From contig CAKPGR010000004.1 in the NCBI GenBank assembly GCA_934155005.1, positions 1 through 54,368 on the forward strand: a DNA stretch of 54,368 nucleotides, written 5' to 3'. Position numbers and translations under genes: made by a program. The DNA is from an uncultured Bacilli bacterium (lineage in GTDB: Bacteria; Bacillota_I; Bacilli_A; RF39; UBA660). This document shows, piece after piece, positions 2,032 through 54,368 of this stretch. Every line of letters starts with the position of its first letter. The stretch's first letter is position 1. The notes under the pieces were generated by a model. That model did not search any database and was not told where the DNA came from. It was given only the letters and a program-made list of their open reading frames with translations.

Positions 2032-2051
2032 AATCCCTATTATTAGGGATT
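2032..2051. terminator. bidirectional hairpin terminator shared by convergent genes
   Basis: aatcccta (2032-2039) pairs with tagggatt (2044-2051). It is flanked by an A-run on the left and a T-run on the right, and it overlaps the stop codon at 2050. Confidence 0.5.
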
Positions 2052-2865
2052 ATTTTATTATTGATTTTGAGATTGTTATTACTGGTCGAACACCACGGTT
2101 AATCTCACTAACAGAATTACTGATTAAGTTACCGCCTCCACTAATAACCCATGCAAGAGAGGAACTACCTGTATAGATATTACTTGTCCAATATCCCCAT
2201 GTAACTTGATCTGCATTATTAAAGCATCCATAATCTTTACAGTCACTTCTTGTTCTATCATATAGCCATCCATAATTACTTCTTTTGCTTGTATCACTCC
2301 CATTATTACTTCCAAAATAGAAGATTGTTCTTGCATCCCAGTTTGTATTTTTTGATATCTTTGCTACTTCATTTGCTGTGATTAATCTAGCTCCCACTAC
2401 CCAGTCTTTTGTATCATTAGATAACGTTCTTGCCACTTCATTCATTTCACTGTTATTTCCACTTGAATTATAAGCAACAACAGATGTTGTATTATGATCT
2501 AGTATTAGATTAACAGATGTTGATCCTTCTTCATCATTAAATGTATACCATTTCATACATCCATTTTTTGTTCCTGTTGTTGATACAGCAGAACTTGACG
2601 TGCATTTTTCTCCTGTTGTTGGATTATAGTATATAGCAGTTCCATTTTCATATTTCTTTGTATAATTATTTATTTTGTTATATAAATCATCTAAGGCATT
2701 TTGAAGTGTTGTATTACTTCCTAAGTTAGAGCCTGTTGGAGCACTCACTAATATTCCATTTGCATAAAATTTTGTTCCTGCATACACTCCTACACTTCCA
2801 AATACTATTCCACTTATTATTATTCCAAATATGTTTTTCTTAATTAAATTTAAAAATTTTTTCAT
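2050..2865 (-). CDS. secreted or membrane-anchored C-type-lectin/DUF1566-like protein, paralogue of the DGR target at 53805
   Basis: N-terminal signal anchor. The C-terminus ...GYWTSN...SLAWVISGGGNLISNSVSEINRGVRPVITISKSIIK is homologous along its length to the ORF at 53805 (GCMKWYTFNDEEG, ARLITANEVAKIS, RSNYGWLYDRT). Confidence 0.7.
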   Translation of the reverse strand: MKKFLNLIKKNIFGIIISGIVFGSVGVYAGTKFYANGILVSAPTGSNLGSNTTLQNALDDLYNKINNYTKKYENGTAIYYNPTTGEKCTSSSAVSTTGTKNGCMKWYTFNDEEGSTSVNLILDHNTTSVVAYNSSGNNSEMNEVARTLSNDTKDWVVGARLITANEVAKISKNTNWDARTIFYFGSNNGSDTSKRSNYGWLYDRTRSDCKDYGCFNNADQVTWGYWTSNIYTGSSSLAWVISGGGNLISNSVSEINRGVRPVITISKSIIK

Positions 2866-8439: not shown

Positions 8440-9219
8440 TTATTTTAATACATTAAATACAACAAATACCACTAATCCTGAAATAGCTATTAATCCTACA
8501 AATAACAAAATTTTTAAAAAAACACTTTTTTTAGTCTTAGGTTTTTCAAAGCCTTCAAAATCTTCATCATTAAAACTCATACTTGATGTAAAAAAGGACT
8601 TGTCAATATTTGTATTTGTAACATCATTTTTCTTAGCATCCATTTTTTTTACTTCATTTAAGATTGATTTAATTGAATCTTTATTTCCAATCATTGTATT
8701 ATTATTAGATTTCAAATCTTCTAGCATATCAAGTCCAAGTTCTTCTTCTGTAAGTTTACTAATTTTACTAGTATTATGAATAGTATCAATCATACTTTCC
8801 ACTTGCTCTTTTGGAATTTCTTCCTTGCTTTGTTCTTTTAATTTTTTTAGTAACTCTACATTTTTTTCATCTAAATTATGATATTTTTGATGTTCCTTAT
8901 TTGTCTTAGCTTTATCTAGTATATCTCTAATATCATATACTCTATCTTCATCTCTTTCAAATGTTTCATATTTTGGTTCTTCTATTTTTTCATCAATAAA
9001 ATTCCTTAAATCTTTTTGTCTTTGAAATTCTTCTCTATTTTTTAACATATTTTTTACTTTTGTGATGTCAACTTCATTATCTTTTTCAATAGTAGCAATG
9101 CCTTCAATATTACTATAAGATATATCATCATAAATATTTTTATATAAATCCCTATTCTTTTCACTTCTTTTTGTAATATTGTTTCGTTCATTACTATAAT
9201 ATCTATCCATTCTACTCAT
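8440..9219 (-). CDS. hypothetical protein with a C-terminal TM anchor
   Basis: A 259-aa charged protein ending in the hydrophobic helix FLKILLFVGLIAISGLVVFVVF. RBS AAGGTGA. Confidence 0.45.
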   Translation of the reverse strand: MSRMDRYYSNERNNITKRSEKNRDLYKNIYDDISYSNIEGIATIEKDNEVDITKVKNMLKNREEFQRQKDLRNFIDEKIEEPKYETFERDEDRVYDIRDILDKAKTNKEHQKYHNLDEKNVELLKKLKEQSKEEIPKEQVESMIDTIHNTSKISKLTEEELGLDMLEDLKSNNNTMIGNKDSIKSILNEVKKMDAKKNDVTNTNIDKSFFTSSMSFNDEDFEGFEKPKTKKSVFLKILLFVGLIAISGLVVFVVFNVLK

Positions 9220-22151: not shown

Positions 22152-22225
22152 TGGCAGGGGTAGCAGGAGTTGAACCCACATCAGCGGTTTTGGAGACCGT
22201 TATTCTACCATTGAACTATACCCCT
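22152..22225 (-). tRNA. trnW: tRNA-Trp (anticodon CCA), 74 nt with encoded CCA end
   Basis: The reverse complement is AGGGGTATAGTTCAATGGTAGAATAACGGTCTCCAAAACCGCTGATGTGGGTTCAACTCCTGCTACCCCTGCCA. It has a 7-bp acceptor stem AGGGGTA/TACCCCT, anticodon loop CU-CCA-AA and T-loop TTCAACT. Confidence 0.9.
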
Positions 22226-52854: not shown

Positions 52855-53163
52855 TTATAACTTTATTTGAATATCAACACCACTTGGAATTTCAAGATGA
52901 GTTAATGACTCAACTGTTTCCTTACTTGGGTTATTGATAACAATAAGTCTTTTGTGTGTTCTTTTTTCGAATTGTTCTCTCGAATCTTTATATTTATGAA
53001 CAGCTCTAAGAATAGTGATTTTTTCTATTTCAGTTGGTAGTGGTATTGGTCCACTTACTTCTCCACCAGTTCTTTTAACTGTTTCAACTATTTTAGCACA
53101 TGCTTTATCCAAACTTTTATGTTCAAATGCTTTTAATTTAATGCTTATCTTAGTTTTAGACAT
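52855..53163 (-). CDS. rpsJ: 30S ribosomal protein S10
   Basis: [11 protein letters not shown] and GPIPLPT, first gene of the S10 operon. Confidence 0.95.
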
Positions 53164-53294
53164 ATTGTATCCTCCTTTCGCCTATATCCAGTATAGACTT
53201 GCTCCGTGTAAAAACCCGATTTACTTTTTAAATTATTTACAACTTAACCTGGCGTATCGGCAACCTTACACATCCTAGCTGTCACACATAATCA

Positions 53295-53381: not shown

Positions 53382-53452
53382 TAAAAAAAAATCACAGTTT
53401 CTAGTTTTAATTCTTTTCGTCTTAAACTACTAGCAATTAAAACATCTGTGAT
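53382..53452 (-). terminator. long interrupted hairpin plus U9: terminator of the target-gene/TR transcription unit
   Basis: ATCACAG (53446-53452 on the minus strand) pairs with CTGTGAT (53391-53397). The inner stem is GTTTTAATT/AATTAAAAC (53435-53443 / 53404-53412). T9 follows on the minus strand (A-run 53382-53390). Confidence 0.6.
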
Positions 53453-53556
53453 ATAGTTTTTATTAAAAGTTTATACCTTTTAAAAGGAATAATACTTATT
53501 TCCCAATTCTTCTATTTACCTACCTTAGTAAAATAAATCGCAGTTATAAAAGGAAT

Positions 53557-53643
53557 CTGGGCGAACACCGTTGTTAGTATTGCTAACAGTGTTGTTGTTC
53601 AAGTTACCGTTCCTATTCACATTCCACGCATTAGTAGAGCCGC
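53557..53643 (-). repeat. DGR template repeat (TR), non-coding, Asn-codon-rich, with an IMH*-like 3' end
   Basis: An 87-nt copy of the target gene's 3' coding end. Conceptual reading gives STNAWNVNRNGNLNNNTVSNTNNGVRP (12 AAC/AAT codons). It differs from the VR only at TR adenines in the core. Confidence 0.8.
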
Positions 53644-53804
53644 AGGAAAAAAATAAACCTTTCAGTATTATCCCTATATATAATCTTCAATATTTACTTT
53701 ACAACCAATATCTACTATTTTATTCTTATTTATATTATTTCTTATAAGTTTATTTATTTTAGCTTTATTATTTTCTTTTTTACAGTTTGCTTACTACATT
53801 CCCA

Positions 53805-54368
53805 TTAAGAGATTATAGATTTTGAGACAGATATAACTGGGCGCACGCCGTGGCTAGCTGGATCGCTAACAGGGCCGTTGTACAAGACACCGAGCCTATA
53901 CACAAGCCACGCACTAGCAGAGTCGCTTATGTTCGCATTACTTGTCCAGTATCCCCTTGTGTCTTGATCTGCATTATTTAAACATCCAAGATTTTTACAA
54001 TAATCACTTGTTCTATCATATAACCATCCATAGTTACTTCTTTTACTATCATCACTTTGATTATTACTTCCTAAATAAAACCAATCTTGTCCTAAATTAA
54101 AATTTGTATTACCAGATATCTTAGCTACTTCATTTGCAGTAATTAATCTAGCAGTATTTTTCCAGTCTTTTGTATCACTTTCTAAAGCTGGAGCTACTTC
54201 TTTCATCTCACTATTGTTTCCACTTGAATTCCAAGCTACTTTTGCTGTTGTATTATGGTCTAATATTAAATTTACTGAATTATTTCCTTCTTCATCATTG
54301 AATGTATACCATTTCATACATCCGCTCTTTGTTCCTGTTAAACTCACTGATTCACTTTCTGTGCATTT
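53805..54368 (-). CDS. DGR target: secreted C-type-lectin/DUF1566-like variable protein (3' part; the gene runs off the right edge)
   Basis: Homologous to the ORF at 2050-2865 from GCMKWYTFNDEEG onward, with the frame open to the window end. The C-terminus is ...SASAWLVYRLGVLYNGPVSDPASHGVRPVISVSKSIIS. Confidence 0.8.
   Translation of the reverse strand, partial: KCTESESVSLTGTKSGCMKWYTFNDEEGNNSVNLILDHNTTAKVAWNSSGNNSEMKEVAPALESDTKDWKNTARLITANEVAKISGNTNFNLGQDWFYLGSNNQSDDSKRSNYGWLYDRTSDYCKNLGCLNNADQDTRGYWTSNANISDSASAWLVYRLGVLYNGPVSDPASHGVRPVISVSKSIIS
53837..53926 (-). repeat. DGR variable repeat (VR) with a GC-rich IMH-like 3' end
   Basis: 90 nt inside the CDS, aligned to the TR with 17 substitutions, all at TR adenines, plus one 3-nt insertion. 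The 3' end is GGCGTGCGCCCAG against TR GGTGTTCGCCCAG. Confidence 0.8.

What the first reader, a model, noticed from the sequence alone, without database searches (positions are those of the whole stretch)
53557..53926. Diversity-generating retroelement signature: adenine-specific TR/VR pair at the C-terminus of a lectin-like surface protein
The 3' coding end of the partial gene (VR, 53837-53926) is repeated 280 nt downstream in non-coding DNA (TR, 53557-53643). I aligned them by hand on the coding (minus) strand. The TR reads tct act aat gcg tgg aat gtg aat agg aac ggt aac ttg aac aac aac act gtt agc aat act aac aac ggt gtt cgc cca g. The VR reads tct gct agt gcg tgg ctt gtg tat agg ctc ggt gtc ttg tac aac ggc cct gtt agc gat (cca) gct agc cac ggc gtg cgc cca g. 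Across the 72 aligned core positions, 17 of 27 TR adenines differ and 0 of 45 non-adenine positions differ. The TR reads as STNAWNVNRNGNLNNNTVSNTNNGVRP (12 AAC/AAT codons, the codon type favoured in DGR templates), and the VR reads SASAWLVYRLGVLYNGPVSDPASHGVRP. Adenine-specific mutagenic retrohoming from an invariant TR into a VR at the C-terminus of a C-type-lectin-fold protein is the defining behaviour of DGRs, as in the Bordetella phage BPP-1 Mtd paradigm. The replaced adenines also explain the locally GC-rich VR in an AT-rich genome.
Basis: partly seen in the sequence, partly recalled or inferred. Interest (0 to 1): 0.9.

Follow-up and report, generated by a model that had tools for sequence, protein, structure and literature searches.

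The report
DGR template-variable repeat pair without RT
The window holds a real diversity-generating-retroelement (DGR) template/variable repeat pair at the tail of a pilin-like surface protein gene, but the reverse transcriptase (RT) that would drive it is missing from the locus, so it is either a frozen relic or a template served by an enzyme encoded elsewhere.

Summary
The repeat is real and lies at the stated coordinates. Over 87 aligned nt, 17 of 28 TR adenines differ, against 3 of 59 other bases, plus a 3-nt insertion in the VR (P = 3e-8). The TR is non-coding. It sits inside a ~300-nt structured RNA unit (5' leader, TR, 3' region, terminator hairpin). This unit is homologous to the RNA that lies beside MutS-like–bAvd–RT genes in related gut Bacilli, so a DGR origin is secure.

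The target, full length in a same-strain contig, is a 338-aa protein with a type IV prepilin N-terminus. Its variable C-terminal domain gives only weak DUF6273/Lcl_C (C-type-lectin-like) hits among family members.

Five further paralogous genes at other chromosomal sites also differ from this one TR mainly at adenines, so homing acted in trans.

No RT, Avd or MutS-like gene was found in the 54-kb window, in 8.3 kb upstream of the target gene, or in ~130 kb of the same genome. The VR is identical in four near-clonal assemblies. VRs of three paralog groups are invariant among diverged alleles. An RT-bearing relative shows 24 VR changes against a 0.3% background.

Best reading: a genuine DGR module that has lost, or is separated from, its RT and is probably quiescent. 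It is a new member of a known kind.

The parts
53805..54368 (-). 3' part (187 codons plus stop) of the DGR target gene. The full-length ortholog is a 338-aa protein with a prepilin-type N-terminus.
   Evidence: Translation. The same-strain contig L012 (99.99% identical over 11.5 kb) gives a 338-aa ORF whose residues 2-25 hit PF07963 N_methyl at E = 4e-8. There are 608 homologs; 29 of 50 sampled carry N_methyl, 20 of 50 DUF6273 and 7 of 50 Lcl_C.
53837..53926 (-). Variable repeat (VR). It encodes ...DSASAWLVYRLGVLYNGPVSDPASHGVRP and ends 10 codons before the stop.
   Evidence: 17/28 TR adenines substituted, 3/59 other bases, a 3-nt CCA insertion, and 61% GC.
53557..53643 (-). Template repeat (TR). 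It is non-coding, has 11 AAY codons in the VR frame, and ends in CGCCCAG.
   Evidence: No ORF covers it. It is the best adenine-specific donor for six VRs out of ten TRs tested.
53664..53674 (-). 5' leader of the DGR RNA (GGGATAATACT). It forms the 5' arm of a long-range stem that closes around the TR.
   Evidence: It pairs with 53486-53496 both in the single-sequence fold and in the 9-sequence consensus fold, where some pairs change on both sides. It is conserved in all relatives.
53486..53496 (-). 3' arm of the closing stem (AGTATTATTCC), within the conserved region 3' of the TR.
53383..53556 (-). Conserved 3' region of the DGR RNA (spacer-like). It ends in the hairpin ATCACAG(53446-53452)...CTGTGAT(53391-53397) followed by a T-run, which probably acts as the terminator.
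   Evidence: It is homologous to the region 3' of the TR in the RT-linked loci L006, L008, L009, L018 and L025. The terminal stem covaries (ATCACAG / ATCGTAG / ATCATAG, each with a matching partner; 3-4 sequences changed on both sides per pair). Fold z-score is -2.8.
53675..53804 (-). AT-rich spacer between the target stop codon and the RNA leader. In relative L006 the MutS-like, bAvd and RT genes occupy the equivalent position between target and TR.
   Evidence: No significant RT remnant is present here (score 22 against 18 ± 2.9 for shuffles). The TATAAT box seen in relatives reads GAAGAT here.
2050..2865 (-). Paralog of the target (P0009, 271 aa, hydrophobic signal/anchor N-terminus). Its VR-like end is not adenine-specific relative to the TR.
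   Evidence: 12/25 A and 12/49 non-A mismatches.

Best explanation
This is a genuine DGR template/variable repeat module in the chromosome of a 26%-GC gut Bacilli-type bacterium.

**What is there**
- The TR lies inside a ~300-nt structured non-coding RNA: a 5' leader, the TR, a conserved 3' region and a terminator hairpin.
- In relatives, the homologous RNA is made beside a MutS-like–bAvd–RT gene set.

**What it did (inferred from the sequence pattern)**
- An RT copied this RNA with errors opposite adenines.
- The cDNA overwrote the last ~85 nt of the ligand-binding C-terminal domain of a prepilin-type surface protein.
- The same happened in trans at five or more paralogous genes scattered around the chromosome.

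**Present state (inferred)**
- The RT/Avd/MutS-like module is no longer at this locus. The layout matches what an internal deletion in a target–MSL–avd–RT–TR cassette would leave.
- The system is most likely quiescent: a fossil whose VRs are now fixed alleles changing only by ordinary mutation.

The DGR origin and the absence of an RT from the locus are shown. The loss of the RT from the whole genome, and inactivity, are inferred.
For: **Adenine-specific TR/VR pair.** 17/28 A against 3/59 non-A mismatches, P = 3e-8.

**Homology of the RNA unit.**
- The TR-RNA unit is homologous to RNAs that flank RT genes in relatives. Pfam confirms MutS_I, bAvd and RVT_1 in L006. L025 and L031 carry MSL–bAvd–RT–TR–pilin after tilS–ftsH.
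- There are 99 invariant columns across nine sequences, with covarying stems.

**One TR fits several VRs** (A mismatches, then non-A mismatches):

| VR | A | non-A |
|---|---|---|
| window | 17/28 | 3/59 |
| P0001 | 15/28 | 1/58 |
| P0003 | 12/28 | 3/59 |
| L015 | 16/28 | 4/59 |
| P0008 | 14/28 | 6/56 |
| P0007 | 16/28 | 7/59 |

**No RT found.**
- A YxDD / IGNxxSQ motif scan of the window found no RT-like ORF.
- No RT is called in the 8.3 kb of L012 upstream of the target gene.
- tblastn with RT, Avd and MSL queries found nothing in the window or in the same-species loci, ~130 kb in all.

**Signs of quiescence.**
- Changes since the last homing: a 3-nt VR insertion, a TR-specific G-to-T change and a synonymous VR change. 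By contrast the RT-linked loci L006, L026 and L027 have 0/58, 0/64 and 0/64 non-A mismatches, and the RT-less L007 has 8/62.
- The VR is identical in the window, L012, L013 and L014.
- VRs are invariant within three paralog clusters whose members differ elsewhere by 1-7%.
- The RT-bearing relative L025 versus L026 puts 24 of 51 differences into 74 nt of VR, against 0.3% elsewhere.

**RT loss recurs in this clade.** L016 keeps only a frameshifted C-terminal RT remnant upstream of an intact TR RNA. L007 has none.
Against: - Only about 130 kb of a genome that may exceed 1 Mb was examined, so an RT elsewhere is not excluded.
- The RNA unit shows no clear decay. All stems are kept, and only one derived change falls in a near-invariant column. 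That fits continued use as well as recent loss.
- P0001's VR has 0-1 non-A mismatches, so it was homed recently.
- The four assemblies with an identical VR include three that are 99.99% identical to each other, so they say little about rate.
- The three frozen paralog clusters are weak evidence for the younger VRs. Two of them (P0008, P0005) carry older VRs with 6 and 11 non-A mismatches, and the third (P0006) was not compared with the TR.
- The RT-linked locus L010 also shows 4/71 non-A mismatches and a 3-nt indel. Such blemishes therefore do not prove inactivity.
Confidence: 0.55

Rival explanations
1. This is a functional split DGR. The stand-alone TR RNA gene next to the S10 operon is used in trans by an RT-Avd (and MutS-like protein) encoded elsewhere in the genome or on a co-resident element. 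Homing into the pilin-like paralogs still occurs, but rarely or only under particular conditions.
For: - The RNA unit is intact, with every conserved stem kept.
- One TR serves dispersed targets, so the cDNA step is trans-acting anyway.
- P0001's VR is essentially free of non-A mismatches.
- Remote targets more than 100 kb from the RT are documented for cellular DGRs (PMC5758913).
- Only ~130 kb of the genome was surveyed.
Against: - In every relative that has an RT, the TR lies within about 100-450 nt of it.
- None of the RT-linked TRs retrieved matches the window's TR.
- VRs are static among alleles that have diverged elsewhere.
- Non-A changes and an indel have not been overwritten.
- The -10 box seen upstream of the leader in relatives is not conserved here.
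Confidence: 0.35
2. This is not a DGR product. The 'TR' would be a decayed duplicate of the gene's 3' end, such as a pseudogene fragment or a gene-conversion donor, and the adenine bias would come from AT-biased drift or from selection on the variable codons.
For: - The family has many paralogs, and the gene body shows signs of exchange among them: 15.6% divergence between the window and L015, against at most 2.3% in the flanks.
- Some paralogs (P0009 and the 331-aa forms) differ from the TR at all four bases.
Against: - Non-A sites are 95% identical while A sites are 39% identical. The substitutions go from A to all three other bases.
- The homology stops exactly at CGCCCAG.
- The copy is embedded in an RNA unit that is homologous, with covariation, to units lying beside RT genes.
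- RT-linked relatives show the same TR design with 0 non-A mismatches.
Confidence: 0.03

Closest known systems
MSL-containing cellular DGRs ('Architecture D' of Wu et al. 2018, PMC5758913; includes the Legionella DGR)
   Same: The relatives of this locus carry MutS_I-like, bAvd and RT genes plus a TR and a target on one strand. Their TR RNA is homologous to the window's. The context is chromosomal, and the TR pattern is absent from IMG/VR viral contigs.
   Different: The window's locus has none of the three protein genes. Only the target and the TR RNA remain.
Treponema denticola DGR (TvpA), with seven remote targets
   Same: One TR matches several paralogous target genes scattered over the chromosome, with A-to-N differences (PMC5758913).
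   Different: In Treponema the TR sits beside its RT. Here no RT has been found. The targets here are prepilin-type or signal-anchored proteins, not lipoproteins with an FGE-type domain.
Bordetella phage BPP-1 Mtd DGR (the paradigm)
   Same: Adenine-specific TR-to-VR differences at the C-terminal end of a ligand-binding protein. The TR is AAY-rich and non-coding, and it is followed by a structured 3' RNA region.
   Different: This system is cellular, not phage-borne, and the architecture differs. TR and VR are identical through CGCCCAG in active relatives, so no internal IMH/IMH* difference is seen. No hairpin follows the VR.
Bacteroides DGRs that diversify type V pilus tip adhesins (bioRxiv 10.1101/2024.11.15.621889)
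   Same: A gut bacterium diversifies a pilus-associated adhesive protein. VRs differ between hosts when the RT is present (compare L025 with L026).
   Different: The pilus system differs: here a type IV prepilin N_methyl motif. The phylum and the RT clade also differ.
DUF6273 / Lcl_C (DUF1566) variable domains of DGR targets
   Same: Family members give DUF6273 hits (20/50, best 3e-6) and Lcl_C hits (7/50) over the VR-bearing domain. DUF6273 has been modelled as C-type-lectin-like in phage DGR targets (PMC10743442).
   Different: The window's own protein falls below threshold for both families. The structural comparison was not significant.

Membership tests
Diversity-generating retroelement (DGR) | TR/VR repeat pair whose differences fall almost only on TR adenines | tested here: met
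   17/28 A against 3/59 non-A mismatches, P = 3e-8. Five further VRs show the same pattern relative to this TR.
Diversity-generating retroelement (DGR) | DGR-clade reverse transcriptase next to the TR | tested here: not met
   No RT motif or homolog in the 54-kb window. No RT in the 8.3 kb of L012 upstream of the target gene. Relatives place the RT about 100-450 nt from the TR.
Diversity-generating retroelement (DGR) | DGR-clade reverse transcriptase somewhere in the same genome | tested here: inconclusive
   None found in ~130 kb of same-strain contigs. The rest of the genome could not be reached. Four RT homologs looked up (P0122, P0134, P0186, P0199) belong to other organisms with different TRs.
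Diversity-generating retroelement (DGR) | Accessory gene (Avd, HRDC or MSL) in the cassette | tested here: not met
   tblastn with bAvd and MSL from relatives gives no hit in the window or in same-species loci.
Diversity-generating retroelement (DGR) | Non-coding TR embedded in a conserved RNA with a structured 3' region | tested here: met
   No ORF covers the TR. The unit aligns with the RNA of RT-linked loci, with 99 invariant columns. 9 of the 37 predicted pairs show two-sided changes. Fold z-score is -2.8. No Rfam family matches.
Diversity-generating retroelement (DGR) | VR at the C-terminus of a C-type-lectin-fold (or Ig-fold) variable protein | tested here: inconclusive
   The VR ends 10 codons before the stop. 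The window protein has no Pfam hit, while family members hit DUF6273 (20/50) and Lcl_C (7/50). The AF2 model has pLDDT 69, and the best PDB match is the FGE-type protein PvdO at E = 0.31.
Diversity-generating retroelement (DGR) | Hypervariability of the VR among strains or reads, confined to TR-adenine positions | tested here: inconclusive
   Window versus L015: 16/28 A sites differ against 6/59 non-A sites. That allele's gene body is also 15.6% divergent, so paralog exchange could explain it. The VR is identical in four near-clonal assemblies. VRs are invariant in three paralog clusters. Raw reads were not available.
Type IV pilin-like (class III signal peptide) proteins | N-terminal prepilin cleavage/methylation motif followed by a hydrophobic helix | tested here: met
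   The full-length same-strain ortholog in L012 hits PF07963 at residues 2-25, E = 4e-8. The family profile hits PilE1 and other pilins in the PDB over the N-terminal helix only. The motif lies outside the window.

The most novel reading that the evidence does not exclude
The TR RNA next to the S10 operon is a free-standing, trans-used DGR template gene. An RT-Avd complex encoded far away in the genome, or on another replicon, charges this RNA and rewrites the tips of a whole family of type IV pilin-like and membrane-anchored adhesins at six or more chromosomal sites. This would be a 'split' DGR that RT-anchored detection pipelines cannot see.
Probability: 0.3. Interest if true: 0.6.

Novelty: new member of a known kind. 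Interest (0 to 1): 0.45.

Why it matters
- **Detection bias.** DGR surveys start from the RT gene and look for a TR nearby, so RT-less template/target modules like this one go uncounted. This case shows that they exist, and that they recur (L007, L016). They keep an intact DGR RNA and leave behind families of once-diversified surface proteins.
- **An unstudied clade.** The locus points to a large chromosomal DGR clade in low-GC gut Bacilli. More than 2,500 RT homologs score at E < 1e-40. The usual target is a type IV prepilin-type protein, and searches of the open paper library for such DGR targets listed no paper on them.
- **If the RT is remote.** That would be evidence that TR RNA genes can be physically uncoupled from their RT.
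- **If the RT is lost.** The locus would be a dated example of how a hypermutation system is switched off and its products become fixed.

Tried and rejected
1. **RT remnant between the target stop and the TR.** The frame reads ...KIVDIGCKVNIEDYI*, which resembles the C-terminus of the L009 RT (...KDIGCVKVEIINNEIVYK). The DNA alignment score (22) is within the shuffle range (18 ± 2.9, maximum 31), so this was rejected as evidence.
2. **tblastn of RT against the window with relaxed settings.** It gave only low-complexity AT-rich noise.
3. **Hunting the genome's RT through close RT homologs.** P0122 (84% identical to the L009 RT), P0134, P0186 and P0199 all sit in other organisms and carry their own, different TRs.
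4. **TR pattern scans.**
   - GTDB genomes gave six loci, none from the window's species.
   - JGI metagenomes gave one locus, L016.
   - IMG/VR gave none.
5. **Alternative donor TRs for the poorly matching paralogs.** For P0009 and the 331-aa forms, none of the ten TRs tested gives an adenine-specific pattern.
6. **Structure route to the lectin fold.** The AF2 model has pLDDT 69 and no PDB match at E ≤ 0.001. A profile search of PDB sequences found only the pilin N-terminal helix.
7. **Hairpin after the VR, as in BPP-1.** None was found.
8. **Promoter and terminator scan.** It flagged no promoter for the TR RNA, and it missed the long terminal hairpin because of its large loop.
9. **Cluster look-up of the full-length target P0249.** It is a single-member cluster, so no VR variants are on record.

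Full report
**1.

All genes in this 26%-GC window run on the minus strand. The last one, 53805 to beyond 54368, is cut by the window end. Its 3' end is repeated in non-coding DNA between its stop codon and the S10 ribosomal-protein operon. The S10-Clostridia leader lies at 53178-53284 and rpsJ starts at 53163.

A computed local alignment gives TR 53557-53643 and VR 53837-53926:
- Of 28 TR adenines, 17 differ (to G 8, T 5, C 4).
- Of 59 other bases, 3 differ.
- The VR has one extra codon (CCA).
- The probability that at least 17 of 20 mismatches fall on adenines by chance is 3e-8.
- The TR/VR score of 42 compares with 13-18 for the TR against shuffled windows.

- The TR has 11 AAY codons, not 12.

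The VR is 61% GC in a gene that is otherwise 31% GC. The TR has no start codon and lies in no listed ORF.

**2. The TR is part of a conserved DGR RNA gene.**

A degenerate TR pattern found six loci in GTDB genomes and one in JGI metagenomes. Further loci came from RT homologs.

In these relatives ("Erysipelotrichaceae", "Bacilli" and "Bacillota" MAGs, 20-28% GC) the TR lies beside a cassette of three genes. These are a small MutS-domain-I protein, bAvd and an RVT_1 reverse transcriptase (Pfam). Two gene orders occur:
- target–MSL–avd–RT–TR (L006);
- MSL–avd–RT–TR–pilin-type target, directly after tilS–ftsH (L025, L031/L032).

The window's sequence aligns with theirs well beyond the TR. The alignment runs from a leader GGGATAATACT (53664-53674), through the TR and about 170 nt of 3' region, to a hairpin ATCACAG...CTGTGAT followed by a T-run (53383-53452). 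Ninety-nine columns are invariant across nine sequences.

The consensus fold has three elements:
- a long-range stem between the leader and AGTATTATTCC (53486-53496) that closes around the TR;
- an internal hairpin;
- the terminal stem.

Nine of the 37 predicted pairs keep pairing through changes on both sides (for example ATCACAG, ATCGTAG and ATCATAG, each with a matching partner). The window's own sequence folds the same way, with z = -2.8. No Rfam family covers the unit. This homology, more than the substitution table, secures the DGR origin.

**3. The target.**

A same-strain contig, L012, is 99.99% identical to the window over 11.5 kb. It shows the full gene: 338 aa with a prepilin cleavage/methylation motif at residues 2-25 (PF07963, E = 4e-8).

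The family has 608 detected homologs and comes in two forms:
- a prepilin-type form (323-338 aa);
- a form with a plain hydrophobic N-terminus (268-277 aa).

The window's fragment has no Pfam hit. Of 50 family members, 29 hit N_methyl, 20 hit DUF6273 and 7 hit Lcl_C (the former DUF1566). DUF6273 has been modelled as C-type-lectin-like in phage DGR targets (PMC10743442).

My AF2 model reached only pLDDT 69. Its best PDB match was the FGE-fold protein PvdO at E = 0.31. 'Lectin-like' is therefore plausible but not shown.

**4. One TR, several targets.**

The same species carries at least seven paralogs at unrelated chromosomal sites: next to hrcA–grpE–dnaK, next to recO, next to znuA, and others. 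One of them lies in this window at 2050-2865. The contigs share samples and coverage (~18-19x in ERZ4567843).

Mismatches against the window's TR:

| VR | A sites | non-A sites |
|---|---|---|
| window | 17/28 | 3/59 |
| P0001 | 15/28 | 1/58 |
| P0003 | 12/28 | 3/59 |
| L015 allele | 16/28 | 4/59 |
| P0008 | 14/28 | 6/56 |
| P0007 | 16/28 | 7/59 |
| P0005 | 14/28 | 11/57 |
| P0009 | 12/25 | 12/49 |
| two 331-aa forms | 13/28 and 11/27 | 17/54 and 10/50 |

- Of ten TRs tested, the window-type TR is the best donor for the first six.
- No second TR or 3'-region copy occurs in any of these loci.
- Homing therefore acted in trans from this TR, or an identical copy, at different times. Remote targets are known for cellular DGRs such as Treponema (PMC5758913).

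**5. The RT is not here.**
- A motif scan of all six frames of the window found no RT-like ORF.
- L012 shows no RT in the 8.3 kb upstream of the target gene. That stretch holds fba, an EPSP-synthase-family gene, rpmE, two femAB genes, rpiB and DUF1146.
- tblastn with RT, bAvd and MSL from a relative found nothing in the window or in the other same-species loci, about 130 kb in total.
- The four RT homologs I could trace belong to other organisms with different TRs.
- The TR pattern is absent from IMG/VR.

The 130-nt spacer between the target stop and the RNA leader is where L006 has its three genes. The layout is what an internal deletion would leave, but I found no significant remnant there.

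RT loss does recur in the clade. L016 has an intact TR RNA preceded by only a frameshifted C-terminal piece of the RT. L007 has none.

**6. Is it active?**

*Against activity:*
- The VR carries an uncorrected 3-nt insertion and a synonymous change.
- The window's TR has a private G-to-T change: the L015 TR and five VRs keep G.
- The RT-linked loci L006, L026 and L027 show 0/58, 0/64 and 0/64 non-A mismatches, whereas the RT-less L007 shows 8/62.
- The VR is identical in the window, L012, L013 and L014.
- In three paralog clusters, alleles that differ elsewhere by 1-7% at the protein level have identical VRs.
- In the RT-bearing relative, two samples differ at 24 positions within 74 nt of VR and at 0.3% elsewhere.
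- The TATAAT box upstream of the leader in relatives is not conserved here.

*For activity, or at least not against it:*
- The RNA unit is structurally intact.
- P0001's VR is essentially pristine.
- Three of the four identical-VR assemblies are clonal with one another.
- Two of the frozen clusters (P0008, P0005) carry older VRs; the third (P0006) was not compared with the TR.
- The RT-linked L010 also has 4/71 non-A mismatches and a 3-nt indel.
- The window and L015 VRs differ at 16/28 A sites against 6/59 non-A sites. That allele's gene body is 15.6% divergent while its flanks differ by at most 2.3%, so exchange between paralogs could explain the difference.

**7. Verdict.**

| Claim | Confidence |
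|---|---|
| DGR origin of the pair | about 0.95 |
| Quiescent, RT-less relic | about 0.55 |
| Working split system with a remote RT | about 0.35 |
| Non-DGR duplicate | about 0.03 |

This is a new member of a known kind. It belongs to the MSL-type cellular DGRs (Architecture D of PMC5758913). It has Treponema-like remote targets, an uncommon prepilin-type target, and an unusual RT-less state.

Noticed in passing
window 2050-2865 (-): A second member of the target family (P0009, 271 aa, hydrophobic N-terminus, no prepilin motif). Its VR-like end differs from the TR at all four bases (12/25 A, 12/49 non-A), so it is a decayed or never-targeted paralog.
   Followed up: yes
L025 5281-8764; L031/L032 4284-7245; L028 4275-6170: In related species the MutS_I-like–bAvd–RT–TR–pilin cassette sits at a conserved chromosomal site directly after tilS–ftsH, or near HU/spoIVA. 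More than 2,500 RT homologs score at E < 1e-40, which points to a large, apparently cellular DGR clade in low-GC gut Bacilli.
   Followed up: partly
L025 vs L026, VR at 8645-8718: Two samples carry the same RT protein, yet 24 of their 51 differences over 9.4 kb fall within 74 nt of VR. This is a clear case of ongoing DGR diversification in a relative, and it served as a positive control.
   Followed up: yes
L016 (reverse strand) positions ~60-430; L007 960-1902: RT decay upstream of an intact TR RNA. L016 keeps only a frameshifted C-terminal RT remnant fused to an unrelated ORF. L007 has a serine-recombinase fragment there instead.
   Followed up: partly
window 53927-54241 vs L015: The target gene body is 15.6% divergent between two strains whose flanking DNA (spacer, TR RNA, S10 leader) differs by 0-2.3%. 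This suggests allele replacement or gene conversion among the paralogs.
   Followed up: partly
window ~53681-53700 (-): The TATAAT box that precedes the DGR RNA leader in seven relatives reads GAAGAT in the window and in L015. No terminator separates the target gene from the TR, so the TR RNA may be made only by read-through from the target gene.
   Followed up: no
L013, L014, L015 contig ends (window ~54240-54400): Several independent assemblies of this species break inside the target gene. This is probably because the N-terminal two-thirds of the gene is nearly identical among paralogs.
   Followed up: no
L010 (reverse strand), VR vs TR: An RT-linked DGR of the same clade also shows a 3-nt insertion in the VR relative to the TR, plus 4/71 non-A mismatches. 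Codon-length indels may be tolerated in this family, or may even arise during homing.
   Followed up: no
window 53178-53284 (-); 22152-22225 (-): An S10-Clostridia ribosomal-protein leader (42.7 bits) lies upstream of rpsJ, and there is a single tRNA-Trp(CCA). Both are ordinary features that help place the organism among the Firmicutes/Bacilli.
   Followed up: no
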